A stretch of 64,000 nucleotides of DNA from Amoebophrya sp. A120 (lineage: Eukaryota; Protista; Dinoflagellata): NCBI GenBank assembly GCA_905178155.1, contig CAJINV010000016.1, forward strand, positions 124,001 to 188,000, in the 5' to 3' direction. The translations under genes and the position numbers were made by a program. Positions 1 through 64,000 of the stretch are shown piece by piece. The notes beneath the pieces were generated by a model that was given only the letters and a program-made list of their open reading frames with translations, was not told where the DNA came from and made no database searches. The stretch's first letter is position 1. Every line of letters starts with the position of its first letter.

Positions 1-1460
1 TCAGCAGGCGCCGGAAGTCAAACAGCCCCTCGCAGTAGAGCGAGTCGGCGACGATCAAGTCGCAGTCCTGGCCCTGGAAAAGAAACTCCGCGATCCAGTG
101 GCCGAAGGCCTCCTCCCCGTAAATGTTGTCGAAACTCAGCCGCCGCTCCGCCAGCTTTTCCAGGATGTCTTGTTTCGCCTCGTGGCCCACGGGAATTGCT
201 TCGGAGTTGATGAACCGCTTCGGCGCAAGCCGCACGCCCGCCTGGTACAGCTTCTTCAGCACGCTCTTCGGCGGCGTGAAGTCCAGGGCCCGGTAGTCGA
301 GTTGCTCGTCGAGTATGGAGTTCTCAAATGTTACATTCTCAACTGTTGCATGAATTTGCAATGCATGAACGGCAAAAGCGAAAGGGGGACAATTGCGCCT
401 CTAGCATTACAAAATCCGCACAGATTTAAACGCTGTTTAGCCCTCCAGGAATTTGTCATGCGAAGTCGCTTCACCCGACCCTGTGGATGTTGATGTTGAT
501 TTTGCATGACAAATCGTGTGAGCAGTTGAGAATGTAACAGTTGAGAACGCCATATCGAACGCCAGGTCCTTGTGCCCCAGCGGGACCTGCAGCTTGGAGC
601 AGAAGGGGCTAGTTGCGTTCAAGGTGGAAAATTTCATGCGGTCGTTGAAGGTCAATGCGTCCACGTCTTCGGCAACGTAGAGGTTCTTGCCGCCAGTGTG
701 GTCCTCCCGAAGCACGAGTGTGCAGTAGTTGAAAGCGAAGGTTTATCCTGTGCAAAAGCAACATCTTCGCGGAGGTCGTAGTACAAATAAATTGCAATGA
801 TCCTGCAACAAGACAGATGTCTCTCGTATTAAAGGGAAATCAGTATCGTAGACGCCAGCGCCACTTTTCAGATTAGGAATAACAATAAAAACATTTTTCT
901 GTATGCAGTCGTTTCTATGTACTTACTACGAAGATAGCTGCGATGCTTCAACTTTTGCAATGCGTAAAACCACCTCGTACAGCAGGTACCCGTCCCGGTT
1001 CTTCTGGTTGGCCAGGTAAATCATCGCGTCGTATCAAATGCAAAAGTGTCTGGGTCTGGAATATTGCCGGGTTTGTCATGCATATTTTGCATGACCCAGG
1101 ATGTCTGCAATGCACGACCCAGCATCACAGATTTTTAGAGGGCCTTCTGCTGCCTACTCCGCATGACAAATGCCCTCCCCGCGTAGCACAAAATGACCTC
1201 CTCTTGCTGGTCATGCAATGCAGATTTTTCTAGAGTCTAAAGTTAGCGTCACAAGTTGCAACCTTCCAGACCCAGACATTTTTGTAGTTGATACGTCGTA
1301 AGCCTGAGACATCTCCGTCTTGGACGTGCTGAGAAACAGAATCCGGGTCGGTTCGATTTTTCGACTGTCCTTCCGGTCCGCCACATGAAAGGGCAGGGCG
1401 GCAAGGTCGTAGAAATCTGCGTCGGTGACGGTGGTCGGAGAATCGATGTGAGGGCCGTGC
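1..1460 (-). CDS. Hypothetical protein, partial; introner-interrupted and runs off the left edge
   Basis: Removing 1032-1293, 744-966 and 314-554 (each plus 5 nt) gives one open frame: ...KTEMSQAYD|AMIYLANQKNRDGYLLYEV|xFAFNYCTLVLRED...KDLAFD|EQLDYRALDFTPPKSVLKKLYQAG... The 5' end is unresolved and no family was recognised. Confidence 0.6.
314..554. mobile_element. Introner, family E (TATGG..TCTCAAA.GTTACA TIR)
   Basis: TAT...ATA ends; flanks TCGAG/TCGAA. Confidence 0.85.
744..966. mobile_element. Degenerate introner, family F
   Basis: Ends TATCCTGTGCAAAAG...CTTTTGCAATGCGTA. TSD eroded (AGGTT/AAACC), but removing element plus 5 nt keeps the frame. Confidence 0.6.
1032..1293. mobile_element. 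Introner, family A (TATCAAATGCAAAA.TGTCTGGGTCTGGAA TIR)
   Basis: About 30-bp TIR; TSD CGTCG. Confidence 0.9.
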
Positions 1461-1955
1461 TATAAGCGTGCACAACCACTCCTGATCTTGTTGTTTCCCC
1501 ACAACGATTTTTTTCTCATTTCTCATGCAAAACAACAAAGAATTGGGCTGTCAGCATCTGCGTACTTATTTCTATTGGTGGAGGCATCGTCCAGTTCTAC
1601 GCGACGCATGAAGCTGCTATGTAAGCGATACACGACTTCTGCGTTTGCCGCTGTTGCTGCTCATAGGTTTTTGAAATGAGAAAAAAGGAAAAATAAGTAT
1701 TGAAAAAGGTGGTAGTTGTGCCGTCTCATACTCCCGGGACCTTCTTGGGCTTTTGCTTTTTCTTGGCTTTGCTCAGCCTGTACTCGAAGGAATAATATGA
1801 GTGTGAAAAAGACTACTGAAGACTCTTTTACCGGATAATTTGGTGATGTAGTCAATGTCGTGCCTGACAAAATGCATCAAGATCTCGTCTGTGACAAGTT
1901 GTTTCAAGGGTTTGCTAGATGAACTTACTGGGCGGAAAAGGAAAACTGCACACCT

Positions 1956-4900
1956 TCATACTTCTTGCTCGCGCACGACCACATCACAAATCAGTCGGAG
2001 TCGTAGTTCTACTTTATTCTTAGAGGATAGAGCATCCTCGGAAGCCAGATCCTCGGCTCCCCTGCGCAAAGAGGCGGACCCGCGGCCACCCATCGACATG
2101 TTGGGCGCGAAGCTCGCGGCCCCCGGTGCAGCCATGGCCGCGCTCTCCGGGATGTCAAAGCTTTCCGGGGGCAGAAGCGGGATCACAGACTGCACCACCT
2201 CGTCGTCGTCGGTTGCAAAGCTGGCGGAAACCGGCCCGTCTTCCCGATCGCCAGACTTTATCAAGTGTAAAAATGTCTGGGTCTGAAAGAATGCAACTTG
2301 TCATGCTAAATCTGAAGCATGCAAAAATCTGTGTTGCATGATGGCCACAAGTCGTCAAGTTTTGACCAAGTCGGGAGGGAGCTTCTCATGCAGGATAGGC
2401 ATGAAGAGAGAGATCGCACAGGATCTGTCATGCTAGGCGCTGCATTCCAGACCTCATGGATCATGGAGAAGCTGCATGACAAATCGCGCACTCTTCCAGA
2501 CCCAGACACTTTTGCATTTGATAGACTTACTGCCCATGCCAAACATGGACATTAGTTTGTCCATGGTTATCCTATGTAAAAACGTCCCCACACGTTAGTC
2601 AAGATGGGGATTGGCTAGACAAATCCACAAGCTTTGGCTGTTTTGCATGACAAATTTGGACTCATAGTGTAGTGCTGTTTATTGAGGTAGTTCAGCAGCA
2701 TCAAAGATCTAGTATATGATCATTCGGATCGGAGCATAACAAATTCCAAAACACGACTAAAAGATCCTTCTCATGGGGATCCGCATGAGAAACATATTCC
2801 AGCATGCAGATTTGCATTTACAACTATACGGTGGGGACGTTTTTAAATACCATAATGGTACCCAGTTCCTCTTTGACTTCGCGCACGACCGCGCTGGGCA
2901 CCGTGGACACCGGCATCGTGCTGTACACCGGCATAGAGAGATATGCGGAGGGAGAATTCTTTTTCTACTGTACACGCTACGTTGTAGAAGTAGAGGCTGC
3001 AAAGAAATCAAGCATGCGCATGGCAAGACTGTCAACTTCAAGCTTAAACAAAAATGTAAAGTAAGCTGTCATGCTGGTACTTAAGCAAGACCTAGGCCTC
3101 TTGTCGTGCTGTCTTCCCCTGCTTGATTCTCTTTTCTACGTGCGGTACTGTAGAAAAATTAAAATTTTTTTTCCGTTGATAACTTCGGCGTCCTTGACTG
3201 GTAATCGCTCAAGAACTCGTGCACGGACACGCCCTGCGCGGCCCGATTCGGTTATGCATTGCAAATATGTCTGGATCCGGAAGACCGCAACTTGTCATGC
3301 TACATCTGGATCATGGAAAAATTTGTATTGCATGCTTACCAAAAGAGGTCCACTTTTGAGCAAATTCAAGGGCAGTTACTCATGCAAGAAAGGCATGATA
3401 GAGATCTCACAGAACCTGTCATGCTAGGCCGTGCAGGGCAGAGCGCGTGAGTCATGGAAAATCTGCATGACAAACCTAGCAATCTTCCAGACCCAGACAT
3501 TTTTGCATTTGATATCAGTCGCGCTTGTTCAAAATCGTCAAACGCCCCCGCTTCCAGGCCGAACATCGATTCATCGCCCGCCGCCATGGCGTTGGCCGTC
3601 CGGTAGCGGCTCGGTGCGTTATGAATGTGCACAACTCCCCCTCCCCCTCATTTGTATAGCAACATGAACGGCAATACAAGCATCAGCAAGAGTGCCGGTT
3701 TTTGCATGACAAATTTGCACTGGATTATAGTGCTATTCGGGCTACCACAGGAGCTTGTCATGCAAACAATGCCAAGAGGTAAAGGGTGAGTTGGGTATTT
3801 TGCATGACAATTGAGGAGGAGGGGGAGTTGTGCACTGTCATATGCGTTAGCGGGCCGGTACTTGCGCTTCGGCTCCATCCGGTGCAGCACCTGCATGAAG
3901 AACAGAAGAGTGCTATCCTGAGTAAAAACGCACCCACACTAGAGTCAGGATGGGGATTCTGCAACACAAACCTAGAAGCTTTGTAAGTCACGCATGACAA
4001 GTTGCGCTATGCAGTGTCGTGCAGGTTAGCAAGTGCAGCCGCGCCACAGATTCGTCTGCTCATCCTGTTCACAGCATCACAAATTCCAAAACACGATTGG
4101 AAATGGCTCTCATGGGGATGCGCATTACAAGTCTTCCAGTCTTTGCAAATCTGCATTACAACTCTGGTGTGGGTACGTTTTTACTCAGGATAAATGCCAA
4201 GAAACCCCACCACGCACACCAAAATCGTCAGCCCCACGTCGGTGGAGCAGCTGCATTTGTCCCAGTTGTTCCCCCCGTTTGGAAGCAAGTCCGCGACCCT
4301 GGTGGAAACGGAAGAGGTGACGAGGGGTGACGTGCCGTGGCGATAGGAAAAAGTCCTTTCTGGTTGCTCGTCATCTCTGGCAAAATTCTCGTCAGCGGGG
4401 GCAGAAGCAGCGGCGCGAGGATCATTTTGCGTTTGTTCTTGCGGATCACCATCATGATCTTGGTCGTCGCCGTGATCGAGAAGAACTCCGCCGTGGACCT
4501 CTTGTCCTGCGTGGGCGGCTTGCTGCTGCTGCAAGGCGATGTTTTCGTCGTCGTCGTTAGGTGCATTCGGTGCTCCTGCAGCTGAACCTCGTCTCCTCGG
4601 CTGCGGCTGCTGATTGCTGCGGACCTGCAGGAATTGTTTCGGGGAGGTGTTGAACTTCAGCTTGCGCGGACGGACGTATTGCTCGAAAAAGTTCGATGCC
4701 GTGTTTGCCGTGGTCTCCAGGAAATGCTGCACGGGCGATATTGCAGTGAAAAATGCCCCCACCCCCAAAGTTGCAAAAATTTGTGACGCGAAGTTTCCAA
4801 ATGGAAACTTTTTGTCATGCATGAAAGGAGTATGAATCTTTCTGATGCAGAGTCTAGGCGTGTATCGCAGCGATTACATGACAAGCGCCGCTCTTGCTGG

Positions 4901-5150
4901 GGTCTTTTGCACTACAAATTTTTGCTATTCACGATTCGAAACCTGCGATGCTGGTAGATGGAAGAGGGCGAGTGTTTCATTTGGAAAGGTTTGCAACACA
5001 AATCTCCCAAGTTCGGGGGTGGGGGCATTTTTCATTGTAGTAGGCGAGTGGTAGGCCGCGGAGCTTACGGAGGAGCCGGGCGTTGTGTGGGGGGAATGGG
5101 AATCAACGTCTGTAGTTGCTGCTGGGTGGGAGTTGTGCTGGTTTATTTCG
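1956..5150 (-). CDS. Single-pass membrane protein, paralog of 32571-33976; 6 introners
   Basis: Spliced: ...KCSCSTDVGLTILVCVVGFLG|xLLFFMQVLHRMEPKRKYRPANA|PSRYR...SDYQSRTP...MPVYSTMPVSTVPSAVVREVKEELGTM|DKLMSMFGMGSKS|GDRED... The junction at about 2965-3185 and both ends are uncertain. Confidence 0.6.
2259..2523. mobile_element. Introner, family A
   Basis: TIR; TSD GACTT. Confidence 0.9.
2568..2854. mobile_element. Introner, family B (TATC....GTAAAAACGTCCCCAC TIR)
   Basis: TIR; TSD ATGGT. Confidence 0.9.
3253..3514. mobile_element. Introner, family A
   Basis: TIR; flanks TCGGT/TCAGT. Confidence 0.85.
3620..3842. mobile_element. Introner, family C (TATGA..GTGCACAACTCCCCCTCC TIR)
   Basis: TIR; TSD TGCGT; inverted copy at 38424. 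Confidence 0.9.
3914..4192. mobile_element. Introner, family B
   Basis: TIR TATCCTGAGTAAAAACG; flanks AGTGC/AATGC. Confidence 0.85.
4739..5042. mobile_element. Introner, family D (TA.T.CA.TGAAAAATGCCCCCACCCCC TIR)
   Basis: TIR; TSD GGCGA; right end is GTA. Confidence 0.85.
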
Positions 5151-6750: not shown

Positions 6751-6839
6751 ACCATTTCTTTTGAAGAGCAACTGATTTGATGACAAATCGTGTCTCTACT
6801 AGACAAAACTGCGCTCCTTTCCCGAAGCAAGTGTGCCAA

Positions 6840-11200: not shown

Positions 11201-12129
11201 GCCATTATTTCCCACCACTACAGTCGATTCCATTTTCCATCTGCTGAAGATGTTTTTCCGATACCGACAGCCTAAGCACCGGGAGCCAGTTTTTACCTTT
11301 CGCGGCTTCGGTATGGGTGTGCCAGGATTGAAATCGACAAACGTGAAATAACTTGCAATGCATAAAATGGATTAAAGTTGTGACCCAGTTTCCAAGTGGC
11401 GCATGACATAAACAGACTGTGCTACTGCGGGCGAGACATTGCGTATCAGGTGAATTGATCAACCCGAAGACGCCGCCTCCCCGGGCCCTACGGACCTGGC
11501 ACTCCCAACTACAAATTTGGGTAGAACCGAAATCCAGGTTGCCATGGTGTTTGGGTAAGGGCGACGCCTTTTGTCATGCTACTTGAGCAGCTCAGTTTCT
11601 TTTTCTACCCCTCAACAGGCTTGCAATTTGCCTCACTTGCCTACTCTGGAACACAGGCACTTTCTTTGTGGGCTGCATTTTATGCATGGCAAACTATCAA
11701 CATCAACTCTGACAATTTCAATCCTGACTCTCCCATATTCGGTTTCCGAGTGCCCAGTCACTGATGTGGCTGAGAGTGAACGATGGACGAGGTGCGGCAC
11801 TCTTGGGTGATCCATACCCGCCCCGCCTTTGCCATAGAGTCCCTGGAAATTCCGAATGAACTTGTCTCTGTATGATTGTATTTTGCGAAGGTCCTCTATC
11901 GTGAGAAAAAAGCGTAATACGGTTACACACTCTGATAGGAGAGGACAAGTAAGACAGACCACCTCTGTCATGGAAGACCAGAAAATAATGCTTGCCAACC
12001 TCATTTCATGATGCGTGTTTTCCCTTATAGTCCTCTGCTCATCTACTTCACAGGTTTTCTTTGGCATGCCGAGCAAGAACTTTGTGATGCAGGAAGTCCA
12101 ACTACAAATGTGTAACTGTTACAGCACTT

Positions 12130-15100
12130 TTATCCTGTGATATCCTCTTCTGTGCGTTCGCGCTGAGGTTTCTTCTCCAACGAGCACACCAGACGGAACA
12201 GCATCGGCTGTTCTTCAAACCGCGTCTGCTGCATTTTGGGCTCTAACGTTTGCTCGATGTAAGTTTTTCCATTTTTCGGATTCGAAAACTCTGTGGCGGA
12301 GTTCCCAACGCTCCGACCTGTCAGATTCGTCCACCAGCGCGATTTCACATATCAAAAGGAAAAATCCCCCCTCCCCATATTGACGAGGCACGTTTTTGAA
12401 AATTTGCGTTGCTGATTTGTGATCACGAATCGTCTCTGTGTTGTATGAAGGCAACTCCACAGGCTCCGCCGCATTCTTTAGGCGGTTTGTCATGCTGTTG
12501 CACCTACAGCGTAGACGTCTATCATGCGAAGCGCCTAGGCCAAAACCTGTCTACTCAGGCTTGATATGGGCCTGCAGTCCTCGCCAGCAAGACAAATCTG
12601 ATTTGTGTACACAAATCCAGCATCAGAAACTTCGTTTTGATATGGGGCGGGGGCTTTTTTCACTTTGATATCACACTCACATTCACCACCTTCTGGTCTT
12701 GCGTTGAAAAGGCCTCGAGCAGCTTGTTGACGAAAGTTTGGCAATTATTTCCACCGGGTGCGAGGGCACTGTAGTTCGTGTGATCGAAGCCAATTGCATC
12801 GGCGACCTCGAGAGCGAGCTTCCTCACATCCTCCAGGGATGTAAATCCCTTCGCCTGTATCTCAAAATCCGGCATAGGCTCCTCTTCGGGATCTCGATTT
12901 TTGAGTGCGGGATCAGGATTCGAAGGTCCGGGCAGGTTGTGATCACGCAAGAACTTCGGCGTTCCGAGGCGAGTCTTTTCCAACAACTTAGTCGTGCTCT
13001 GCAACTTTATTTCTGCCAACTTCCTCCTTGCGATTGCCGCGCCTCTTTGTCTCAGGAGAGAAGCTTTTCTTGTTAGGCTTTGCAGCAGGCCCTGTTTACT
13101 TACACTTTCCAGTTTTTTCCCAATCTCTTCCTCCTCCTTCGTCGCTTCTTCAATCGTTTCTTCTAAGTCGAGTTTTTTTTTCCAGTTTTTCCCGAACAAA
13201 GACAGCACCTTGAAGCAAACAAGTGACTTCATGGGCGACGGAACTGGGTCCGGTATCCGCAGTGTCATCCCCCCCCAGTATGTGTAGTTTCTCGACAACA
13301 TCTTCGGAACACTTCCCCCGACGAGGTTAGTGTAGAGGGATTTATCATCTTCTTCGGTTTCCGGTTCGCCAGTTGCTAAGCCTGTTGCCACAAACCCGTC
13401 ATGATACATAGCTGCGAAAAAGCGGAAGTCGTCTTCCCAGAGTATTTCTGTTTCAGATGATTCAGAGTAAATTTCCGGGCCACCGCCCGCATTATATTCG
13501 ACTACGATATCTGCAGTTGCCCCCGGTAGTCGAAAAGTGACGAAGTAGTGCTCGATCGGTATCTGTATCAATGTGACAAAAATGCGCCCACTTTCGCACA
13601 TGCAAGTCACGCACTGACTCGCAACAGAGCTTCTGGATGCGAGGATAGTGCTCGTTTATCAAGAAACCTCATCTACTCTCAACTCCGTCTATTTACTTTC
13701 TGAGGCCCGAGCCCGAGCGCGACACTCCCACGAGCCACGGTGTTGCGGCCTGCCACTTTCTACAGTACTGTGTAAAGATAATGGCCCCTTTCGATGTGCA
13801 GCGTCCCGCCTCGCTTTGAAAGTGCGGGAAGATGGAACAAATAGCTCAGAGACAGAGAGGCGGTCGCATCTAATCTAAAAACAACCAGTCATCCTGCTCG
13901 CTCACTAAGATGGGAAAATAGACTTGAAACTCTCGAAATTGATTCCACGGCCCTGCCGGTACCACTATGACAAGAAAAAGCCGAAAGTCAGTGGTCTACG
14001 TCTACTAGGTCTATGCACGTAACATATCATCAGGTTGAGAACAGCAGACTGTCTACTGAAAACATTGCTTTGAATCATGGCGAAAGTGGGTGCTGTCGCC
14101 GATGAGCTTTCATCTTCGTAACTCCCGCAATGGAAGCCATGAGACAACGACGAATACGGATTTTCGTCGTGGTCATACCCATCGGTTGCACAGGGGCGGG
14201 CTGAGGTGATTCAGTAGAATTCCCCGCACCTCCCGGTGCATCAAGCTCCAGCAGGGGAATCACGTGACTCTCAAGGATTTTTTTCCTAAGTTCCAAATAC
14301 TGGAGCTGCTTTTCCTTGTTCTGGAAGCGGCGTTGCTCTGCGTTTTCCCTCATTCGACCATAAGCTTCTTTTGCGCGACCCAGTGCCTGCGCGGCGCGGC
14401 TAGTTGCCCATTGCATGGAGGAGCGCGGAAAAATGTCCAAAAGCGTGGTTGTGTTTGTGGTCTCCGACAAAGCTTTCTGGTCCGGAACACCGCCAGTGAC
14501 GTGCTTTTTCTCCTGCAGCACCACCTGCATAGGGATGAGAAGTTTATGTGTCTTAGTCTTTGTTCGTTGGTATCATGATGATCAGTCGTACAACTATCTT
14601 TCGTTCCTGAATAAAATTGAAGTTCTCCAATTGCACATGCTGCACTGGCAAATTAAGAACATTGGAAATACTTAAGTAAGTAGTGCCTACCGGTGAAGAT
14701 TTTGCCGCCGCGTCCTTGTTGCTGCTCGCCTCCGCAGCTGTTTCAGTTTTGACAGCCTGCGCTTTGTTCGCATTGTCCGCCATGCTCTCGTCCTCACCGA
14801 CTGAGCCAGAGACCAGCGGGTCCTCTAGTACTTGGCGGCCTTCTTGTTGTTTTTCTTGCTCGATGAAAGTGGAGCTCGCGGACGTCGTTCCAGACGCAGC
14901 ATCCTGCTCGCGAGAACCAATCACACCAGTCGCCTCCTCTTGATCAACGTCCTGCTCCCCGTCCTCCAGGCTCGTGGTTCCTGGCGAAACAAGCGCATCG
15001 GTAATATCAGAAAGGTTAAGGTCGGCGCTCGCGTTATGTTCGTCCGTGTTTTGGAGAACGGAGCCCGGCAGCGCCAGCGGCTCCGTCGTGCTGCCGCCGA

Positions 15101-15926: not shown

Positions 15927-16011
15927 GATTGATTCTTGATTTTTGATTGGGGAAAACAAAAAAAATTCAAGTTTTCAGCTTTTCAAGACTAAACCGAAAT
16001 GGGCGAGTCCC

Positions 16012-16805: not shown

Positions 16806-16879
16806 ACTTGTTCTTTTGTTTTTTTCTTGAAGAGTAGTAGACCATTGTGATTGATAATTCGATATTTGAGACTTATTTC

Positions 16880-17700: not shown

Positions 17701-17756
17701 AACAGAAACAGTAAAGATAATTAAAACGCACATATACAAATTGTTCCTCCCCACCG

Positions 17757-52022: not shown

Positions 52023-55000
52023 TTATTCCCGATCTTCATCATGCTCTGCCAGCATCTCCTGCAGATTTTCTCCGTACTGGTCCGCAATACAGGCTTATGC
52101 AAGAAAAAAACTGTGCAAGGGTAAGTTTCTTGGAGGAATAGCATCACAAGTTTGCTCTGCATGACACAGAAATAAACCTGTCATGCGTAGCTAGTACTTG
52201 AAAACACGTACGGAAAAATTAGCCTCTGATGCATGTCCAGCAGGACAAGTGTAACAGTTTTGCATTTTCTGCAACACAAAGTTCTTACACTATAGACAGT
52301 TTTTTCCTTGCATAAGGCTTGCATCTGGTCCGCGAGCATCTCGGCACTCCACCATGCGCCCTCGACGGTCGCACACCCGCTTGCCCAGTCACCGCAAATT
52401 CCCAGCTTGTGCTCCTTATCCAGCCAGCAGTAGTCTTGCTTCTCCGCCCTGTTTGAGAAGCGTGGTTTCCATATTTCAATAATTGCAACAGAAATTACTC
52501 TCTCAATTTTGTCAGACCCGAAGATCGAATTTTCTTATGCAGGCCCACCAGGTACGAACAAATACAAAGCTGCGACCGTCTCTGTCCCGCATGTTGACTG
52601 CAAAAAGTATAATAGGAAACTGTGTAGTAGTATCTAGCGCGGGCGGTCGCTCCGCGACCGCCGGAAAGGTATGGAGTAGGCAAGAAAACGATGGGCCCGA
52701 TTTCCTACTAGGAAGGTTGCAGTCCTCGCGGGGAAGGGGAGGGGATTCTCCTGGGGGCGAAAACTCTACAGGCGCAGGGCTTCTCCGTCCGCCTGAACCC
52801 CCCGGAGAAAGACAGTAGGCGTGACAGCGGCCCACCCCAGCTCCCAGGAGCAGGAGAAGTTCTGGGAAACAGAAACCCAGGGCCACCCCAAGCTGAGAGG
52901 GGGCCAGCCTTCGGGGATGTTCCCAATGAATTTGCGAACGCCTCCGAAAGCTGCGAGCCTTGCGTGCGGCTGCTCGTCATTCTAGTTACGCCTCCAAGGC
53001 GGCAGGGCTGCTTTTGACGGGGCCCAGAGGGGCGCAGCTGTGGAAACTGCGCGACAAAGAACCTGGCCAGCCAGGCAGGTGCAACCAGCACAATGGGACT
53101 GGGCGCGCTGTGTGGAATAACCATTTAGGGCACTGAGAAAAGGCGCTTTTTTCTACGTGCAGGGCGGCGGGTGCATCCACACCAAGAGGGGGCCGCCCCC
53201 GCGAGGCAAAATGTGGCCACCCAAACAAAGCGCAAACCCCCTACCGGCACCCTGGCGGGGCCGGAGCTAGTTCGCCTGAACCTGCGGGCGCACCAGCGCG
53301 TAGCGCGCCACCCTCAGTCAGACAAATAAGTCCTTTCCCTCCCACGGCTGCGCCCCCTTATCCAGCCAGCAGTAGTCTTGCTTCTCCGCCCTGTTTCAGA
53401 TGAAGCATTTCCATTTTCGCATGTTGATAATTGCAAAAGAAATTAGTCTGTTAGTTTTGTCAGTAGACCCGAAGATCGAGGAGTTTTCTCATGCAGGCCC
53501 AGGTAAGAACAAATACAACGCTGTGACCGTCTCTGTCACTCACGCATGTTGACTGCAAAAACCATAATAGGAAGCTGTGTAGCTGTACTAGTAGTATCTA
53601 GCACGGGCGGTCCCTCCGCGACCGCCGGAGAGGTATGGAGGAGACAAGGATGCGATAGGCCCGCTTTCCTACGAGGAAGGTTGCAGACGCGGGGAAGAGG
53701 AGGATATTCTGGGGGCGAAAACCCTAAGCCCCCCGGAGAAAGACAGTAGGCGTGACAGCGGCCCGCCCCAGCCCCCAGGAGCAGGAGAAGCTCCGGGGGA
53801 AAGAAAGAACACCCGGGGCCACACCAGCGTGGAAAGAGGCGAGGCTTCTGGACGGTTCCCAATAAATTTGCGAGCACCCCCCAGGCTGCGAGTCTTGCGG
53901 GCGGCTGCTCGTCATTCTAGTTACGCCTCCAAGGCGGCAGGGCTGCTTTTGACGGGGCCCATAGGGGCGCAGCTGTGGAAACTGCGTGCGCGACAAAGAA
54001 CCTGGCCAGCCAGGCACGTGCAGCCAGCACAATGGGACTGGGCGCGCTGTGTGGAATAACCATTTTTTTCGGGCACCGAGAAAAGGCGCCTTTTTCTTCG
54101 TGCAGGGCGGCGAGAGCATCCACACCAAGAGGGGGGGCCGCCCCCGCGAGGCAAAACGTGGCGACCGAAACAAAGCGCAGAGCCATCCCTGGCACCGTGG
54201 CGGGGCCGGAGCTAGTTCGCCTGCACTTGCGGGCGCAGCAGCGCGCGCCGCACCACCCTCGGTCAGATAAAGAAGCCAGCTTGTGCTCCTTATCCAGCCA
54301 GCAGTAGTCTTGCTTCTCCGCCCTATTGAAGAAGAATGAATGTATTCGTTTGCCTTTGCATGCGAATAATTGCAACAGAAATTAATCGTTTACGTTTTAG
54401 TTTTTTCAGACCTCCCGAAGATCGAGTTTATTTCTCATGCAGACCCAGGTAAGAACAAATACAAAGCGAAAGCTGCGTCTCGGTGCTGCATGACTGCTAA
54501 AATTATAATAGGAAACTGTGTAGTAAAGTACCCTCTATTCGCTCCTGCCTTGCCCGGTCTGCCGATAACCTGGGCATACCTATCCAATGCAAATATGTCT
54601 GGGTCTGGAAGATGGCGAGGTTTGTCATGCTTGGCAGGCAGGAGTAGAGAAAAAAAAAACTGTAATGGATGCTGCCCTATAGTGCCTCTTTGTCTTTTGC
54701 GTCACGCAAAAATGCAGTTTGTCATGCAGTTTATGCAAGACGGAGTCGCTCAGAAACTTGTCTTGCGTGGTTCCGAAATGGAGCTTGCCTATTATTCGCA
54801 CATTAGCATCACAAGTTTCCAGACCCAGACATATTTGCAATGCATAATACCGCCACGCGTGCAGATCCGTGTACTCCAGACGGCGCATGTCAAACATGTA
54901 CTTCCATATGGGGTTCTCAAACGTTACACTTTCAACTGCTACATGATTTGTGATGCAAAATTGCCATCAGCCACACCACGATCAAGCTACTTCGCACGAC

Positions 55001-58000
55001 AAAGGCTAAACAGCATCGAAATCTGTGCCGAATTTGTAATGCAAAAAGCGCAAGCTTGCTCCCTTCACTGTGTGTGTTCTTGCATCACAAATCCATGTAA
55101 CAGTTGAGAATGTAATGTTTGAGAGTCCCATATTCCAGAAGTCAATTTTCGGGCGTGCGTAGTCCTTGTTTTCGGGTATCGGTACGTTGTATCGACTGTA
55201 AAAATGTCTGGGTCTGGAAGATTTGAACTTGTCATGCTAAATCTAAATGATGCAAAAATCTGTGTTGCGTGACCGTGAGTGTCAAAGCTGTCCGCTTTTG
55301 ACCAAGTTGAGAGGGAGTTTCTCATGCAGGAAAGGCATGATACAGACCTCAAAGAATCTGTCATGCTGGGTCTCGCATTTTAGACCTCATGGGTCATGGA
55401 AAATATGCATGACAAACCTGGCAATCTTCCAGACCCAGATATTTTTACATTTGATACGTTGGCAGACAGGAGTAACTCTCGCGCTTCCTTCAGCATGGGC
55501 TTAATCACGTTCGCACCACGGTAGGTGTAGTCGTTACCGGCACCCATCTGCTCCTCCATAATGAAGTGCTGCTCGGACCACTCGAAAGAGGCGAAAACCT
55601 AGTGATTTTTTGTGATGCGGTTTTCGGATGAACAAGAACCCTGGAGCGATATATTAGCGAACTACGCATGACAAACAATTACCGGAACCAGCACTAAAAC
55701 AACAACTGCAAGATGAAAAAGTAAATACGCAGACTGAGATCGTCTTGAGGCCAATCCGGTTTCGCTTCGCAACGCGACCAGGCTTGTTGCTGTCAATGAT
55801 CACGCAGCGGACCACCGGGTGGGCGACGCAGTCAATCGTGCTAGGGATTTCGGTCTCGTTGAGGGAGGCGGGGATTGAAAAACCTGTGGATGGAAGTTTT
55901 TAGCTCGGAAAGAACAAAGTTTGTCAAAGTAGTTCGAGCAAAATAGAAGTAGAACACAACAAATCAGAAAAAAATAAAAATACACCCAAAAATTATCAAC
56001 TTTCTATACCTAGCATGAGCACGTAGCAGCCCCGCATTTTGCTTTTCGCTTGAATTCTCGGAAATTTTTTCATGATGGGCAGTTCTTCGACCAGTTGCAT
56101 GGTCTGGGGACCGGGGAGACTAACCACGACATAGTCGAAGGGTCGAGAAGAAACCGGGGCGTTGGCGGGATTGGTGACCGCGTTGTAGGGTAATCGAGCG
56201 TGTTTTACCTTCCGCAGATCCCACTGCAGGTTAACACCTGGAGTTGTTCGTGATTTATATTTTGCATCACAATTTCGTCCATGTTGACTTCGGATTGCGT
56301 ACTGGAGATGAGACGAAGATGAAGCACTTTATTTGCATCACAAACACATGGACATGACAATGCTCCGCTAGGACTAAAAATATGCGAAGAGGATGGTGTG
56401 TTCCTCTTCTTGTGGACCACACGACCATCTTCTTGCTATCCTTATATCATTCTGAAATACCTTGAAGCCGCTCCTGGTCCGGGTTATTTTCTTTTTTTCT
56501 CACTTCTCCCTTTCTCGGCGGCGGCGGCCTTCTTGCAGAGTCGATTTTTCTCATCGGGTCAATTTCCCCTCTGACACCTCCCCGCGCGCCGCCCTCCGTG
56601 TCCCCGTCCGTACCCCCAGCACCCCCTAACAGTTGCTGCAGCCGCTCCTGTATGAACTGCAAAAGTAACGTACTAGTATGAATAGCATCACAAATTCCCT
56701 CAGCATTAGAAATATAAATTTGTAATGCTGTTTTTTTTACCTTAGGAAGAAAATTTGTCATGCATTTTTGCAATTAGTACGAGTACGATGCTTTTGCGGT
56801 TCATATCCTGTTCCTTCCGCTCCCGTTCCCGGATCATCAAGGGCACCGCCGGATCGTCTATCAAATGCAAACTTGTTTGGGTCTGGAAGATTCTGAGACT
56901 TGTCGCGCACGTTTTGCATGAGCCATGATGTCTCTGATGCATGCCCTAGCATCACATATTTTTTGAGGGCTTCTTGATGCCTATTCCGCATGACAAATGC
57001 CCTCTCCGTGTAGCAAAAAATGCGTTCCCTTTGCTGCTCATGCAATACAGATTTTTTTGGAATCAAAATGCAGCATCACAAGTTGCATTCTTCCAGACCC
57101 AGACATTTTTGCATTTGATATCGTCTTCCTCCGGGCAATTTGGATCGTGCATGTCGCCAGTGGCGAACCGCGAGTAAAGCTGCGCTTCCTGGTTGGAGGG
57201 TAACGCGGAAGCTTCCACGAAACGCACATCTGGGTCAAAAGGGAACTTATTGTTGCCTTCATTCTCATGTTCAGCGTGGGGGGGTAACTGAGTAGATACA
57301 ACTTGATGTCCGGACTGTTTGGGGTGCGGTTTCAGGTGCAGCGTCGAAGGTGGTGCGGCTTTTGAAGGAGCAGTAGAAACAGTTCCACCCGGTGGGGTGA
57401 TTTCTCGCCGCAGGCTTGGATTGGGGTTGGTATCCTCACCTCCTAGTAGAGAAGGCATGTCGTCGAACAGTGGTCCTTCGCCGGTTGAAGAATTCACGTT
57501 CTTGCTCGTATCTACCCTCACCCGCGGGGAGGGCGAAGGGGTGTAGAGCTTGTCCAAGATGCTTTCCGACACCTGTCGGCTGGATGCGCTGATCGACAAG
57601 TTTTCCGACAAGACGCCGGAGGTCTGCTATGAACTGCAAAAGTATCGTACTAGTAGTAAAAATCGCAGTCATGCATTACAAATCTCGATCCCAAGGCAAA
57701 ACAGCATGACAAACTCCATTTCTCATGCTGAGGGAATTTGTCGTGCGATTTCTACTACTAGTACGATACCGTTGCAATGCATATCTGCCGCCCCGCGCCG
57801 ACGTTCCGCGCCACCTCGGACTCGTCATCCGGACTGGAACTGCCGTCTGGACCATGTGATGTCCTGGTGGGGTCTTGGGGCAACGGGGTGTATCATTTGT
57901 AAAAACGTCCCCACACCTCCAGAGCCAAGATGGGAAATCTGCTAGACAAATCACACAGCTTTGGTTCTTGTTTGGCATGACAAGCTTGTCCTCGTAGTGT

Positions 58001-61000
58001 AATCCTGAAGCATGACAGATCTAGCATATCATGCTGATTCTAGCATCAAAAATTCCAAAACACGAATAGAAAATGCTTCTCATAGGGCTCCGCATGAGAA
58101 ACTTTTTTGGCATGCAGAATTGCATGACAACTCTGGTGTAGGGACGTTTTTACTCAGGATAGGGTGCTGTTGGTGTTCTGCAATGAAGGCGTTGTGTAGG
58201 GAACCGGGGACTCGGTCAATTGGAGGTGCTGCTTCTTGACAAGAACGCTGAGATTTTGATTTCCTCCTGTTGTGTTATGATTCACCGGCGTCGTGTCTTT
58301 AGAAGACGACTGTCCACCTTCGAGAAGATGTAGTTGACCTGCTCTACTATTGGGTTTTGTCTTCACCGGAAACAGCTTCCCGATTCTGCATCCCAGCCGG
58401 ACGTCCAGCTTGTTCCGCTTCGCTACCATTTTGCCAAGTTCGGACATTTTCGGCCAACCAACGAAGACCCGATTGTCTTGCAACTCCCGTTATGCATTGC
58501 AAATATGTCTGGGTCTGAATCTGGAAACTTGTGATGCAAGGAAGGGAATAGTGAGCGCACTGTAATGTGCTCCCCAGCATGACAAGTTTTTCTGTGGTTC
58601 AGAGTTGCGTACTCCGCATGAGAAACTGCGTGTTTGCATGACAGACAAGAGGAGCCCTTCGCGGGCACGCAATACAGAGTTCAGAGTCATGCCAGACTCG
58701 CATGACAAATCTCGCAATCTCCCAAAACCAGACATATTTGCAGTGCATACCCGTTCCGAACCGGTTTGCCCGTACATTTGCTCGCGGCTGATTAAATCCT
58801 CGCCTTGCACCTCATCGCGGTTCTGGTGCGTCTTCAAATGATTGTTCCCCCGTGGGGAGGATTTCAGATGATTCTCCCGGGGGGAACTCACTTTTGCGGC
58901 AGCAGATGCTTTGTTGCGATCCTCGTCTTCGGCATTTTTGTTATCCCTCGAAGTCGTGCCTTGGCCTTGCCCCTCTTTACGATCATCGCCCCCGTTTCTT
59001 GGTGAGGATTTTTTCTCCACACCCGAGCAGAGGTCAACATCATTTTTGCTGGAAGTGGGAGTCGTGGCAAGCAGAGTTGTGCCGTTAGACATTTTTCCCC
59101 CAGGAGCTGCACCACTCGCGGCCGTTGACGTTTTCATTTCTGCTAACAGTTCCTCCTTTCGGTTGAACTCCTTTAGAGCGTACAACCCGCATTCTAACTC
59201 GTGGGTCGCGGCTATTTCGTCGGAGGTGCGCTCCTCTGGAATCATATTGTTGTTTTTCACTTATGCACTGCAAAAGTATTATATTATATCGCACTTGTAC
59301 TAATTGCAGTCGTGCATCATGACCAGCCTCTTCCTTACTGTATTAAATCCGCATTACAACTTCCATTCATGTAGCATCAAATTTGTGAAACGCGATTACA
59401 ACTGCTAGTACGAAGATATTACTTGTGCAATTCCAATTCATAGCACTTTTCCTTTATCGATTTTGCAATCCTCGTCCGCGGCCGAGGCCACGCGACTTCG
59501 CGCACAGGCAGGAGCACCCCCACTCTTGCGATCGATGTTGAGGAAGTCGACATCGTAGCACCAGCAGTCGTACAGAATGGGGTTCTATGGATTGCAAATA
59601 TGTCTGGGTCTGGAAGGTTGGAACTTGTAATGCTGGCTTTCCATACCTAGAAAATCTGTATTGCATAACCAACAAAAGTCGCAGCCTCTTTTGTACATGC
59701 AATTTCGCAGGCTCGCATGCAGATTGCCTATGAGAAAGCGTTCTGGAAAGTTGTCATGCTGGGTCGCATTCGGAACTGTTTCCATCATCCACGCTTTAGC
59801 ATCACAAGTCTCCAGACCCAGACATTTTTGCATTTGATAGGTTCTTCCCGTTGCGCCACTCCACAGCGCCGACCTCATCTCGCGGCGCCTCTTCCTCGAT
59901 CACCGACCGGAGCTTGGAGGCGGTGGATGCCCAATTGTAACCAGCCGCGTCTCTGTCCGATCCCGGGTTTTCCCCCTTGTCACTGCTCTGCCCCCCCTGG
60001 GAAGCCGAGGTGTTGCCGACATCGCTGGTTGTGCTGGATTCGCCGTCTTCGTCACCCGCAGGGCTGGACGCAGATTCGCGGTCCTTCAGCATCCGCTTCT
60101 ATCATTTGTAAAAACGTCCCCACCCCAGAGTCAGGCTGGGGACTCTGCAACACAAACCTTGAAGTTTCCGGAACCACGCATGACAATAATGTAGGCTGTA
60201 ATGTAGTGCAGTTTAGTAAACAAAGCCGCATAACAAATCCATCTCCTCATCCTGTTTGCAGCATTACAAGTTCCAAAAAACAATTGGAAATGCCTCTCAT
60301 GGGGATGCGCATTACAAGCGCTCGTGTGCTTGCGGATCTGCATGACAACTCTGAGGTGGGGATGTTTTTACACAGGATAGCTTCTTATTGTTGTTCTCTT
60401 TCTCTTTCTCCGCCACCTCCTGGGAGTGCGTCCTCGTGCGTTCTTTATTGTTCACACCCCACCTGGGTTCGTGATCCTTCGGCAACCCCCACCGTCCGGT
60501 CTGCAAGCCGACGTCCTTGAGTTCCGCGGATTTCTCCTTCCCTTGCGAACTGTTTCGCTCGAAGGCGACCGTCTGCATCCAATCTTGGGACTGATAATTA
60601 TTTATTTCGATTTTTAGATACTCGAGGCTTTAATAGCTTCCACTTCGTGCAAGAATTTAACTTTAAGAACCACGATGCTGACAATCAAAGGGCTTAACCA
60701 AGCAAATCAATGAAAATAAAAACGAGGAAGGAAGATATCAAATTGCTAAAACAAAATAAACCAGACGACTTAATGAACTATATACGATCTGTCTGTCAAA
60801 TCCCCCGGATGGAAATTTCCCCAGGCCGCACGTTCTCTGTAGCCAGGCGTGAAAGTGCGGGTGCTTCACGCGGAAAAACGGCGCGCCAAAGTCGAACTGG
60901 TACCCGGTGGGGTCCGGCGCGCGGGTGTGCCGCGTGACTAATCTGCCCCCGCACGCGTTCGCTTTTTCAAAGATGATCACGCTATCAAGTGCAAAAGTGT

Positions 61001-64000
61001 CTGGGTCTGGAAGGATGTAACTTGTGATGCGAAGTTCAGAACACACAAAAATCTCTGATGCATAGGCAGCAAAAGCTGCTCAACTTCTGTCACCAAAATG
61101 AGGGATTTGTCATGCGGATTCAGCATTGCGGAAGCTTGTCGAAACCTGTGATGCTAGAGCTTCCATGCCAGACCTTCTGTGTCATGCCGAAACAGCATGA
61201 CTCTTCCAGACCCAGACATTTTTACATTTCATACACGCTGATCCGGGGCATTTTGATCGCGGTTTTCCGCTGGTTCTTGTTGACCGCAAAGGGGTTATCA
61301 AGAGCAAAAGTGTCTGGGTCTGGAGGAGTGTAGACTTGTCATGCAGATTTTCCATGGCCCATGAGGTCTGGAATGCGGGACTTAGCATGACAGACTCTGC
61401 GAGGTCCCTACCATCAACATCATGCCTATTCTGCATGATAAACTCCGTTCCAACTTGGTCAGAAGTGGACAGCTTTCGGCACTCAGGCAACACAGATTTT
61501 TGCATGCTTCAGATTTACCATGACAAGTTGCAATCTTCCAGACCCAGACATAATTTTTGCAATTCATAGGGGTTCTCGTTTTCGATCAGCATCCGCGACA
61601 TGCTCTTCAATCTCTCCGCAACATATCCACTGCAAAAGTATCGTACTCGTATGAATTGCAGGTATGCATGACAAATCTGATTTCCTACCTGAATCTGCAT
61701 TACAAGTTCCAATTTTCTTCTTGAAAAAATTTGTCATGCGATTTATGCTAGTACGATATTACTTTTGCAATGCATACAACATGCAGCCCGCTGATACCCG
61801 CACCCAAGACGGCGACCCGGATCTCGTTGGATTTCTCGCTCGTGTCCTGGACCTTCATCGAGGCTGAGGAGGTCGCGTTTGCGATTGTTATTTCGTTACC
61901 GCGATTGCCCCGACGAAGATCGTCCCCGGGGGTGGTTTATCCTGTGCAAAAGTATCGCGCTCGTATTGCAATCATGCATTACATATCCCTTTCTCAAGCT
62001 AAATCTGCATTACAAATTTTATTTCTCATGCTGCAGAAATAATTTGTATTGCATTTATACGAATGCGATACTTTTGCAATGCATATGGTTCTACTAGTTG
62101 TAGTACCAGCAGCAGCTCCAGCTCCTTGATCAGGAAGATTATCCTCCGTCGCGTGGATGCCTTCCACGAAGAAAGACCTGTCGCTCCTCATGTGGGGATA
62201 ATTTTCCACCGCTGCATATGGCGTTCTCAAACGTTACACTCTCAACTGTTACACGAAGTTGTGATGCAAAAACAGCAATAGGGAAAGGGGCAAGGTTGTA
62301 ACTCTTGCGTCACAAATTTGGCACAGATTTAGATGCTGTCCAGCCCTTCGATAATTTGTCACGCGAAGCAGCTTGATCGTCTGGCCGCTCATGTTCTTTT
62401 TGCATGGCAAATCATGTAACAGTTGAGAATTTGTAACGTTTGAGAATGCCATACTGCAGCCTCCGCTGCGCACGATGTTGAAAACGCAGATTCCCAACAC
62501 AGGTAAGAATCGTGCGGCCGCGTGTGACTGCTGTCACGGCCGAAAGTAGAGGAACAGTTGCTGGTAGCCTGCGAGTGATTGCTCGACACACTGCTTTTGC
62601 GGGACCGCGGAATGTCATTTTTGAAAAACCTGTCTCCGCTAGTTTCTTGTGCAATTGTCTGCTGGGAAGTTCTTGTGAAAGAACCTCCAGCAGGACCTCC
62701 AATTCGTCTGTCTCTGTGGCCGCTGTTGACGCTGTCGCCGGATTGTGATCTATTGCTCCTCCGGCGGGCGGGGGGAGCTCCAGCTCCAGCTGATGCAGTA
62801 GAACTACCTTTATTAGAGCAGGTACTGTAGTTCCCTGGTGTGCAGGGCGGCGCCCCTGAGCTCATTGGCGTCGATCTGTCGGTGGAGAAACTGCCGAGAT
62901 GTCGCAAAGGCAGCGGCGGGGGGGGAGGCGGTGGGGGTGGAGTCGGGGGCGCATGGTTTACTACTTCTCGAGTTCCAGGTTCTAGGCCGCCACCAGGCAA
63001 TTCTAGTTGTCGTCCTGGGAGCTTTGGAGGTCCTCGACTGTGGTAATCTCCCTTGCCATCTGTAGCTTTTGATTTCCCCGAAGAAGAAGTAGAGGCAGGT
63101 GCGGCTTCCACTTGCAGCTGCGCTTTGTCGAAAGAACTAGTATATCCTGTGTAAAAGTATCGTACTCGTAGTAATCGCAGTCATGCATCACAAATTGCTT
63201 TCTCAAGTGAAATCCGCATGACAAATTTTATTTCTCATGCTGAGGAAATTTGTCATGCGATTTATACTAGTACGATGCTTTTGCATTTCATATAGTAGCG
63301 AAGCTTTGTGCATCTTGCGCAACTACCGGCGTCCGTTCGCCCATGGAGAGGGACGACGTCGAAGATTTCCGCATCGCCTTTTTCCCCCCTTTCTGACAAG
63401 AAGAAGAATCTTGTTTACCGTGCCCTCCTTTATTAACCAACACACTCTGCATCTTATGCATTGCAAAAGTATCGTACTCGTAGTATTGCAATACAAATTA
63501 GCTCAGCATGACAAATGGAATTTCTCATGCTGAAATAGCTTGAAAAAGAAATTTGTGTTGCATGACTGCGATTAGTACGAGTACGATACTTTTGCACAGG
63601 ATACATCTGCTGCTGTTGCAATAATTGCAAGTCTCGCTGTTCCTGTTCCTGTTGCTGGTAATACCAGGTCACGCAGGAATTTTGATTGCTCTCGTGGTTG
63701 TTGTAGTGGCCGATTTGCTGTTGTTGGTGCGAAAGATGTTGGTCGTAACTATCGGACTTGGACCGCCAATTCCAATTTTTGCTGCCTGTGCCTATCTATC
63801 AAATGCAAAAGTGTCAGTCTGGCTCTGGAACAGTCATGCTGCTTTTGCATGACACACAAGGCCTTCGAGAAGCTTCCGCAATGCCGAATGTGCATGACAA
63901 ATGTCCCATTCTGGTGACAGAAAGCGGCCAGCTTTTGCTGCCTGTGCATGAGAGATTTTTATGGGTTGTCAAATGCGCATCACAAGTTTGCATTCTTCCA
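52023..64000 (-). CDS. Renalase-like FAD/NAD(P)-dependent oxidoreductase with a long low-complexity N-terminal extension; 20 introners plus several GT-AG introns; 5' end probably beyond the window
   Basis: Spliced motifs in order: VAVLGAGISGL, IFEKANACGGRLVTR, FDFGAPFF, VFVGWPKMSELGK, FDYVVVSLPGPQ, CYVLMLGF, DSNKPGR, EWSEQH, HAWRYAQ, LGICGDW...VEGAWWSA; stop at 52023. Continuity above about 62.1 kb was not fully checked. Confidence 0.85.
52096..52314. mobile_element. Introner, family H (TATGCAAG.AAAAAACTGT TIR)
   Basis: TSD AGGCT. Confidence 0.85.
52402..54525. repeat. Tandem repeat of an approximately 935-bp unit, about 2.3 copies
   Basis: CTTATCCAGCCAGCAGTAGTCTTGCTTCTCCGCCCT at 52415, 53357 and 54289. 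Confidence 0.9.
54581..54846. mobile_element. Introner, family A
   Basis: TSD ATACC. Confidence 0.9.
54907..55132. mobile_element. Introner, family E
   Basis: TSD TTCCA. Confidence 0.9.
55190..55456. mobile_element. Introner, family A
   Basis: TSD CGTTG. Confidence 0.9.
56651..56805. mobile_element. Introner, family F
   Basis: TSD TCCTG. Confidence 0.9.
56859..57120. mobile_element. Introner, family A
   Basis: TSD TCGTC. Confidence 0.9.
57628..57783. mobile_element. Introner, family F
   Basis: TSD TCTGC. Confidence 0.9.
57891..58161. mobile_element. Introner, family B
   Basis: TSD GGGTG. Confidence 0.9.
58491..58749. mobile_element. Introner, family A
   Basis: TSD CCCGT. Confidence 0.9.
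59262..59442. mobile_element. Degenerate introner, family F
   Basis: Flanks TCACT/GCACT; eroded TIR. Confidence 0.7.
59586..59839. mobile_element. Introner, family A
   Basis: TSD GGTTC. Confidence 0.9.
60100..60379. mobile_element. Introner, family B
   Basis: TSD GCTTC. Confidence 0.9.
60983..61233. mobile_element. Introner, family A
   Basis: TSD CACGC. Confidence 0.9.
61296..61568. mobile_element. Introner, family A
   Basis: TSD GGGGT. Confidence 0.9.
61624..61776. mobile_element. Introner, family F
   Basis: TSD CAACA; removal gives GISGLHV|AERLKS. Confidence 0.9.
61938..62085. mobile_element. Introner, family F
   Basis: TSD TGGTT. Confidence 0.9.
62217..62453. mobile_element. Introner, family E
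   Basis: TSD CTGCA. Confidence 0.9.
63143..63292. mobile_element. Introner, family F
   Basis: TSD TAGTA. Confidence 0.9.
63455..63603. mobile_element. Introner, family F (opposite orientation)
   Basis: TSD CATCT. Confidence 0.9.
63797..64000. mobile_element. Introner, family A, truncated by the window edge
   Basis: Left TIR TATCAAATGCAAAAGTGTC; interior matches the 35308 copy. Confidence 0.8.

What the first reader, a model, noticed from the sequence alone, without database searches (positions are those of the whole stretch)
314..64000. 41 TAT...ATA elements with 5-bp TSDs act as scarless non-GT-AG introns
Seen: 41 elements in about 9 TIR families; 31 of 40 complete copies have a perfect 5-bp TSD of unrelated sequence. 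Element ends are TAT/ATA, not GT/AG. At each junction translated, deleting the element plus exactly 5 nt restores conserved motifs in the photolyase, renalase-like and EEP proteins. Family C occurs in both orientations in minus-strand genes, so removal does not depend on orientation. Known: introners with inverted and direct repeats have been reported in Amoebophrya, with the splicing mechanism unresolved as far as I know. Inference: one rule (TAT..ATA plus 5 nt) covers all families and points to a structure-guided, possibly non-spliceosomal excision system.
Basis: partly seen in the sequence, partly recalled or inferred. Interest (0 to 1): 0.9.

Follow-up and report, generated by a model that had tools for sequence, protein, structure and literature searches.

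The report
Hairpin transposon introns of Amoebophrya
These are the already described transposon-derived introns of the marine parasite Amoebophrya A120, which lack the usual GT-AG signals and are missing from its assembled transcripts without a scar, and the new detail is that the cuts likely sit at a fixed distance from the element's folded-back ends, which would make the unknown splicing mechanism directly testable.

Summary
Real, and in substance already published. The window is Amoebophrya sp. A120: two annotated proteins match at 100%. The TAT-starting inverted-repeat elements are the introners of Farhat et al. 2021 (PMC7789003). I list 41 complete copies; 33 have a perfect 5-bp duplication. 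A related organism gives 260 of 359 perfect at 5 bp and none at 4 or 6. Transcript-like contigs lack element plus exactly 5 nt, while DNA-like contigs keep the elements. GT/GC-AG is possible for only 19 of 313. Not in the papers I read: a uniform 5-bp duplication and a cut register. One non-slidable junction fixes the intron as N-TAT...ATA-NNNN in transcript sense; two more RNA junctions and two protein comparisons agree but only bound it. That register puts U, A, U at +2 to +4, as in four of six host GT-AG donors. The chemistry is untested. The scan has notes on similar odd-ended introns in other genomes.

The parts
314..554 (.). introner, group A; repeat 4/5
   Evidence: no RNA evidence here
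1032..1293 (.). introner, family C; repeat 5/5
   Evidence: no RNA evidence here
2259..2523 (.). introner, family C (opposite orientation); 5/5
   Evidence: no RNA evidence here
2568..2854 (.). introner, group D; 5/5
   Evidence: no RNA evidence here
3253..3514 (.). introner, family C; 4/5
   Evidence: no RNA evidence here
3620..3842 (.). introner, group B; 5/5
   Evidence: no RNA evidence here
3914..4192 (.). introner, group D; 4/5
   Evidence: no RNA evidence here
4739..5042 (.). introner, singleton; one end TAC; 5/5
   Evidence: no RNA evidence here
11312..11737 (.). introner, singleton; 5/5
   Evidence: no RNA evidence here
11897..12142 (.). introner, singleton, decayed TIR; 5/5
   Evidence: (14/25 matches); fold z about 0
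12350..12670 (.). introner, singleton; 5/5
15265..15616 (.). introner, singleton; 5/5; absent from the paralogue near 21100
33025..33183 (.). introner, family F; 4/5
33249..33516 (.). introner, family C; 5/5
35308..35847 (.). introner, family C with about 300 nt of unrelated interior; 4/5
   Evidence: removed in annotated P0010, which keeps the upstream copy's second base
38424..38639 (.). introner, group B; 5/5
   Evidence: removed in P0010
38693..38847 (.). introner, group G; 5/5
   Evidence: removed in P0010
43263..43412 (.). introner, family F; 5/5
   Evidence: removed in P0001
43466..43621 (.). introner, family F; 5/5
   Evidence: removed in P0001
44416..44677 (.). introner, family C; 4/5; the downstream copy's first base would give a stop
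   Evidence: RNA piece begins at 44678 with no difference
45893..46146 (.). introner, singleton; 5/5
   Evidence: RNA contig skips 45888-46146 = element+5
46578..46730 (.). introner, group G; 3/5; the non-slidable junction that fixes the register
   Evidence: RNA contig skips 46574-46731 exactly; only one placement possible
52096..52314 (.). introner, singleton; 5/5
   Evidence: RNA piece ends 52090
54581..54846 (.). introner, group H (family-C-type TIR); 5/5; the one copy with a possible GT-AG placement
54907..55132 (.). introner, group A; 5/5
55190..55456 (.). introner, family C; 5/5
56651..56805 (.). introner, family F; 5/5
56859..57120 (.). introner, family C; 5/5
   Evidence: RNA piece begins 57120
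57628..57783 (.). introner, family F; 5/5
   Evidence: RNA offset 499 = 499 over three elements
57891..58161 (.). introner, group D; 5/5
   Evidence: same offset
58491..58749 (.). introner, group H; 5/5
   Evidence: same offset
59262..59442 (.). introner, family F, decayed TIR; 4/5
   Evidence: RNA piece ends 59257, keeping the downstream copy's fifth base; a DNA-like contig spans it whole
59586..59839 (.). introner, singleton with family-C-type TIR; 5/5
60100..60379 (.). introner, group D; 5/5
60983..61233 (.). introner, family C; 5/5
61296..61568 (.). introner, family C; 5/5
61624..61776 (.). introner, family F; 5/5
61938..62085 (.). introner, family F; 5/5
62217..62453 (.). introner, group A; 5/5
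   Evidence: RNA piece begins 62454
63143..63292 (.). introner, family F; 5/5
   Evidence: RNA piece ends 63137
63455..63603 (.). introner, family F; 5/5
63797..64000 (.). family-C-like element cut by the window end
42597..47400 (-). host gene: photolyase/cryptochrome family, 1267 aa, five introners
   Evidence: P0001 identical to the element+5 translation; PF00875 and PF03441
34975..39363 (-). host gene: 1098-aa protein, three introners and one GT-AG intron (37484-37649)
   Evidence: P0010
52023..64000 (-). host gene: long protein with weak FAD/NAD-oxidoreductase similarity; 19 complete introners and five GT-AG introns (52449-54531, 55599-55728, 55884-56009, 56238-56460, and a 195-nt one near 60590-60785; inferred)
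   Evidence: 11,338-nt contig of X3, offsets, Pfam weak

Best explanation
These are non-autonomous DNA-transposon (MITE-like) introners of Amoebophrya A120 that carry a 5-bp target duplication and are absent, with exactly one copy's worth of it, from assembled transcripts; they are likely cut 1 nt before the TAT and 4 nt after the ATA, likely by a relaxed U6-type spliceosome guided by the predicted terminal hairpin. Shown: the elements, the 5-bp duplication with no base preference, both orientations, loss of element+5 from transcript-like contigs, retention in DNA-like contigs, and the -1/+4 cut at one junction. Inferred: a shared transposase or integrase that reads TAT/ATA ends and the internal GCATnACAA repeats; pairing of the two ends in the pre-mRNA; generality of the register; and spliceosomal chemistry in which the element supplies U+2, A+3, U+4 of a donor, the first G and the terminal AG are no longer read, and the 3' cut is measured from the stem. 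My odds are 0.97 for identity as A120 introners, about 0.7 for a fixed register, and about 0.5 for spliceosomal chemistry.
For: Identity: P0001 and P0010 are 100% matches named Amoebophrya sp. A120. Farhat 2021 gives the A120 motif as TAT, seven variable nt, at least three A, as seen. Removal: X3 record 9 skips 45888-46146 (254+5) and 46574-46731 (153+5). The record 11 offset is 499 observed and 499 predicted over three elements; 14 more elements fit once five GT-AG introns are allowed. Register: at 46578 the copies differ at the fourth and fifth base, and the contig keeps the upstream fourth and the downstream fifth. 59262 keeps the downstream fifth and 44416 the upstream first. P0010 keeps the upstream second. 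The A120 orthologue of an L045 gene has the residue given by the downstream fifth (weak, indels nearby). Both stop-creating variants among 79 mismatches lie in the copy predicted to be discarded. Spliceosome: the six host GT-AG donors inferred here all begin GTA and four begin GTAT, one of those four being one of three frame-keeping candidates. A120 has U2, U4, U5, U6 and 83 of 89 proteins, with U1 snRNA undetected, while the GT-AG strain from Karlodinium has U1. In A25, with different introners, the repeat starts TTA and the top intron classes are TT-NN, again T at +2. Tunicate non-GT-AG introns are attributed to a changed spliceosome. Hairpin: 38 of 41 fold with z below -2, median -6.8.
Against: Only one junction fixes the register exactly; it comes from assembled contigs, which drop rare forms, and the tool marks X3 as RNA by guess. 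The raw RNA runs laid (X10, X11) did not cover the exons. All window genes tested are on one strand. TAT is equally conserved at both ends, which transposition alone explains. The host donor sample is six, and +5/+6 do not match between the two intron classes. No branch-point-like motif sits at a constant distance: sense GCATnACAA lies 39-49 nt from the 3' cut in 14 of 41 and is absent from 12 of 41. A stable stem would bury the donor-like bases. Farhat's Fig. 3 legend calls the splice position relative to the hairpin variable. The NT-/TT- pattern in their Table S4 may come from aligner tie-breaking, because annotated ends of the large families are a mixture. Mutation pattern in imperfect repeats gave no register signal.
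Confidence: 0.5

Rival explanations
1. Same elements and same -1/+4 geometry, but cut and joined by a non-spliceosomal, structure-reading nuclease and ligase, comparable to euglenid nonconventional introns.
For: No base preference at any of the five duplicated positions; AG at the 3' end in 29 of 313 against an exon background of 7%. Both orientations occur in coding context (family C 50:37, F 27:15, D 11:14). No constant branch-point or pyrimidine signal. In Euglena the rule is also an asymmetric spacing around a paired triplet, N3-CDG...CHG-N5-6, and the excised introns are circles without lariats.
Against: No such enzyme was looked for or found here. The register happens to reproduce U+2, A+3 of the host's own donors, in two strains with unrelated repeats. 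Farhat report the same repeat layout in 15% of A120 GT-AG introns, suggesting one continuum. The geometry is not a bulge-helix-bulge or IRE1 loop (recalled).
Confidence: 0.35
2. Removal is RNA splicing of element+5, but the cut slides within the duplication and the register seen at 46578 is local.
For: 33 of 41 junctions are slidable, so product sequence cannot tell. The published legend says the position is variable or unknown.
Against: All five informative cases agree with one register.
Confidence: 0.12
3. Programmed DNA excision (ciliate-IES-like), so that the element-free contigs are somatic DNA.
For: TA ends and precise loss; X3 is not on record as RNA.
Against: The X3 contig also lacks five GT-AG introns and has depth 0-0.4 inside the 2-kb intron. 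X1 contigs cross exon-element borders without differences at depth 39-46, like unique DNA, and one spans element 59262 whole.
Confidence: 0.02
4. Ordinary splicing at nearby GT/GC/GA-AG sites.
For: 5 of 41 have a placement compatible with GT-AG, GC-AG or GA-AG.
Against: 36 of 41 have none; 19 of 313 have GT/GC-AG at any register; the fixed junction reads CT-AT.
Confidence: 0.01

Closest known systems
Introner elements (IEs) of Amoebophrya sp. A120 (Farhat et al. 2021, PMC7789003; Gozashti et al. 2025, PMC12130899)
   Same: Same organism by protein identity; TAT + 7 nt + AAA inverted repeat; short direct repeats (their example is 5 bp); about 240 nt; RNA-supported non-canonical ends; no transposase inside.
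   Different: They give direct repeats of 3-5 nt (automated calls of 2-6 in the dataset rows I read) and leave the splice position variable or unknown. Here the repeat is uniformly 5 bp and the informative junctions give one register.
Euglenid nonconventional introns (Nomura et al. 2025, PMC12501133; review PMC11282704)
   Same: Paired ends, slidable direct repeats, no GT-AG, asymmetric spacing of cuts around a paired triplet, probable MITE origin.
   Different: Triplet CAG/CTG against TAT/ATA; spacing 3 and 5-6 against 1 and 4; purine preferred at the exon start there, no preference seen here; circles shown there, untested here.
Fritillaria borealis MITE-derived non-canonical introns (bioRxiv 2025.08.15.670264; review PMC11282704)
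   Same: TIR/TSD introns at genome scale attributed to an altered U2 spliceosome.
   Different: Preferred end dinucleotides (AG-AC, AG-AT) and a TAC target there; random target and no end dinucleotide here.
Micromonas, Aureococcus and Polarella introners
   Same: Repeated transposon-derived introns.
   Different: They carry or co-opt canonical-type splice sites (Aureococcus; the rest recalled); these mostly cannot.

Membership tests
Amoebophrya A120 introner elements | Host is A120 or an equivalent strain | tested here: met
   P0001 and P0010 100% identical and so named
Amoebophrya A120 introner elements | Inverted repeat starting TAT, 7 variable nt, then at least 3 A | tested here: met
   TAT at 81 of 82 ends; A at positions 11-13 in 33-39 of 41; 186 of 204 family-C ends anchored without asking for TAT
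Amoebophrya A120 introner elements | Direct repeat of 3-5 nt at the borders | tested here: met
   33 of 41 and 260 of 359 perfect at 5 nt
Amoebophrya A120 introner elements | Removed from RNA with non-GT-AG ends | tested here: met
   contigs only, RNA status inferred
Amoebophrya A120 introner elements | Repeated in families | tested here: met
MITE (non-autonomous TIR DNA transposon) | Short, TIRs, fixed-length TSD, no coding capacity, insertion polymorphism | tested here: met
   paralogue lacks 15265-15616, though a nearby 12-nt indel prevents measuring the duplication there
MITE (non-autonomous TIR DNA transposon) | Autonomous partner with the same ends | tested here: inconclusive
U2-type spliceosomal intron | GT/GC-AG ends | tested here: not met
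U2-type spliceosomal intron | Branch point and lariat | not testable with these tools
   Sequence scan found no constant branch-like motif; lariats need RNA experiments
Euglenid nonconventional intron | N3-CDG...CHG-N5-6 then purine | tested here: not met
   TAT/ATA, spacing 1 and 4, no purine bias
Ciliate-type IES (DNA excision) | Empty sites in somatic DNA | tested here: not met
   X1 contigs keep the elements; rare forms would be missed

The most novel reading that the evidence does not exclude
Amoebophrya A120 has a second, non-spliceosomal mRNA splicing system that reads no junction base at all and measures its two cuts (-1 and +4) from a TAT/ATA-closed stem. It would make any 5-bp-duplicating insertion of these transposons scarless in either orientation, and would have converged on the geometry of euglenid nonconventional introns.
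Probability: 0.3. Interest if true: 0.9.

Novelty: already known. Interest (0 to 1): 0.5.

Why it matters
More than 60% of introns in this parasite are non-canonical and how they are removed is an open question (PMC7789003). A single rule (5-bp duplication; cuts at -1 and +4 from the stem) would replace the published picture of variable splice motifs by one geometry. It would let the gene models be corrected, explain how thousands of insertions into coding exons are tolerated, and say where to look for lariat or circle ends. Either outcome matters: a spliceosome that ignores both G+1 and the terminal AG, or a new nuclease-ligase pathway for mRNA.

Tried and rejected
No whole genome was held, so no search for an autonomous element or for snRNAs. 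Raw RNA runs X10 and X11 did not cover the exons. Junctions in 1-16,000 and 33,000-43,700 have no read or contig evidence here. No exact TIR match in viral contigs. No Rfam family in 13,000-64,000. GCATnACAA as a branch point: rejected as a general signal. Reading frame cannot tell +5 from +2 (median 553 against 554 codons); only RNA lengths and P0001 do. Codon-likelihood test of the register on imperfect repeats: no signal. An apparent excess of synonymous mismatches at positions 1 and 5 (14 of 19) faded in the larger set (20 of 37 against 20 of 42). Pairing of the bases flanking the stem is at chance (24%). The search meant to find a full-length orthologue of the L056 gene returned only fragments. 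The empty-site paralogue does not measure the duplication length. PMC13149111 has no mention of Amoebophrya. Table S4 as independent proof of the register: set aside as confounded.


Full report
Observation. The elements are real. A scan that did not ask for TAT found 35 hairpin-ended segments flanked by 5-nt direct repeats, 29 starting TAT; shuffles gave no TAT hit. With I curated 41 complete copies (148-540 nt), plus one cut by the window end. 33 of 41 have a perfect 5-nt repeat. They fall into 15 whole-element groups, and the larger groups occur in both orientations. All lie in minus-strand reading frames. Removing element plus k nt, with neighbours removed at +5, gives the longest frame at k = 2 or 5 for 36 of 41, with a median of 553 codons against 177-218 for other k.

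Organism. An exon of the photolyase finds P0001 (100%, named Amoebophrya sp. A120) and orthologues at 52-53%. The element+5 translation equals P0001 at all 1267 residues, and the orthologues run through the junctions in conserved regions without a gap. A second gene matches A120 protein P0010, whose model drops three elements and one GT-AG intron.

RNA versus DNA. Contigs of run X3 skip 45888-46146 and 46574-46731, each element+5. In an 11,338-nt contig the distance across three elements is 499 nt, as predicted. Across eight more it fits after one 195-nt intron, for which three GT-AG candidates keep the frame. Across six more it fits after four introns summing to 2,562 nt: 6 of 31,122 combinations fit, one of them all-GT. 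So 5 elements are exact and 14 consistent. The tool only guesses that X3 is RNA. I take it as RNA because it also lacks GT-AG introns and has almost no depth inside the 2-kb intron. Run X1 keeps the elements: its contigs cross exon-element borders unchanged at single-copy depth, and one spans 59262-59442. Contigs drop rare forms. The raw RNA runs laid did not cover the exons.

Generality. An exact TIR search of metagenome contigs gave 125 loci, 520,750 nt. They come from a close relative of A120: one protein is 89% identical to its A120 orthologue. Of 359 unique strictly defined elements, 260 have a perfect 5-nt repeat, 48 have 4 of 5, 11 have 3 of 5, and 40 have two or fewer (probably mis-called inner ends; not inspected). 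None is perfect at 4 or 6 nt. Of 452 elements from a second scan, window included, 313 had a coding-like frame call; the model was trained on part of the same set. Only 19 of 313 allow GT/GC-AG at any register, and orientation is unbiased. The duplicated bases show no preference. TAT is conserved when ends are found by an inner anchor: 186 of 204 in family C. TIR positions 4-7 pair in only 44-71% of copies against 96-97% at positions 11-13, so the predicted RNA is a 3-bp cap, a loose loop and a long stem. 38 of 41 fold with z below -2.

The cut register. Most junctions slide within the repeat. At 46578 the two copies differ at bases 4 and 5 in transcript sense, and the contig keeps base 4 of the upstream copy and base 5 of the downstream copy; no other placement gives that product. 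The intron is then N-TAT...ATA-NNNN. 59262 keeps downstream base 5, 44416 upstream base 1, P0010 upstream base 2, and an orthologue comparison weakly favours downstream base 5. These four bound the cut; they do not fix it. Statistical tests on imperfect repeats added only two stop-creating variants, both in the discarded copy.

Mechanism. Insertion by a transposase or integrase making a 5-bp staggered cut is inferred from the anatomy; no autonomous element was found, and only elements up to 800 nt were scanned. For removal, the -1 cut gives U+2, A+3, U+4. The six host GT-AG donors inferred here all start GTA and four start GTAT. From recalled spliceosome structure, U6 contacts +2 to +6, while the 3' AG is read through pairing with G+1 and the branch A, so losing G+1 and AG together is coherent. 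A120 retains U2, U4, U5, U6 and 83 of 89 proteins, with U1 undetected. Against this: the sample is small, TAT symmetry needs no splicing explanation, and no branch signal is evident. Euglena offers a precedent for the same kind of asymmetric spacing with circular products. I give 0.5 to a relaxed spliceosome, 0.35 to a non-spliceosomal pathway, 0.12 to a sliding cut, and 0.03 to the rest.

What is known. Farhat et al. 2021 (PMC7789003; I saw the abstract, passages, sections 10 and 36, supplement legends and part 3 of 5; no figures) describe these elements in A120: the TAT motif, 3-5-nt direct repeats, RNA support, and an unresolved mechanism with splice position variable or unknown. Gozashti et al. 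2025 (PMC12130899; passages, a supplement search and part 16 of 33 of one dataset) class many A120 families as TIR DNA transposons with automated TSD calls of 2-6. I also saw passages of PMC12005148, PMC11282704, PMC11453091, PMC12501133 (abstract and passages) and bioRxiv 2025.08.15.670264; a term search of PMC13149111 found nothing. Five literature searches listed no paper whose title or abstract opening states a fixed register for Amoebophrya; subscription papers and figures were not visible. The scan's own notes (8 of 77 shown, all from other genomes) list similar odd-ended introns and did not change my reading; one search found none.

Verdict. Already known system, well confirmed. The added value is one 5-bp rule across families and two organisms, and a specific, testable cut geometry that rests on one exact junction. 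Interest 0.5.

Noticed in passing
window, inside elements: The motif GCAT(G/T/C)ACAA occurs 96 times on both strands, 87 of them inside the 9,938 nt of listed elements, across unrelated TIR families; likely a shared binding site of the mobilising protein.
   Followed up: partly
window 55599-55728 and 56238-56460: Two GT-AG introns carry the same motif, the first as an inverted pair, suggesting decayed introners that became canonical introns.
   Followed up: no
window 16000-33000: No element in 17 kb although it holds several long minus-strand ORFs and diverged paralogues of 14597-17813; elements cluster in some genes (up to 15 in 10 kb in L056).
   Followed up: no
window 35308-35847: A family-C copy with about 300 nt of unrelated, internally repeated sequence replacing its right interior is still removed in the annotated protein, so interior content seems not to matter.
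   Followed up: partly
window 59262-59442 and 11897-12142: Copies with decayed TIRs and no predicted stable fold (z about 0); 59262 is still absent from the RNA contig, which a strict hairpin model must explain.
   Followed up: partly
window 52414-54525: A tandem duplication of about 1.2 kb at 79% identity, including a copy of exon sequence, lies inside the inferred 2,083-nt GT-AG intron.
   Followed up: no
window 55190-55272: About 200 raw RNA reads of run X10 match only the first 83 nt of a family-C end at 95-99% and go on in unrelated sequence; that run does not cover the window's exons.
   Followed up: no
window 49757-52022: The long X3 contig continues 2.3 kb past the inferred stop codon, a long 3' UTR or read-through.
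   Followed up: no
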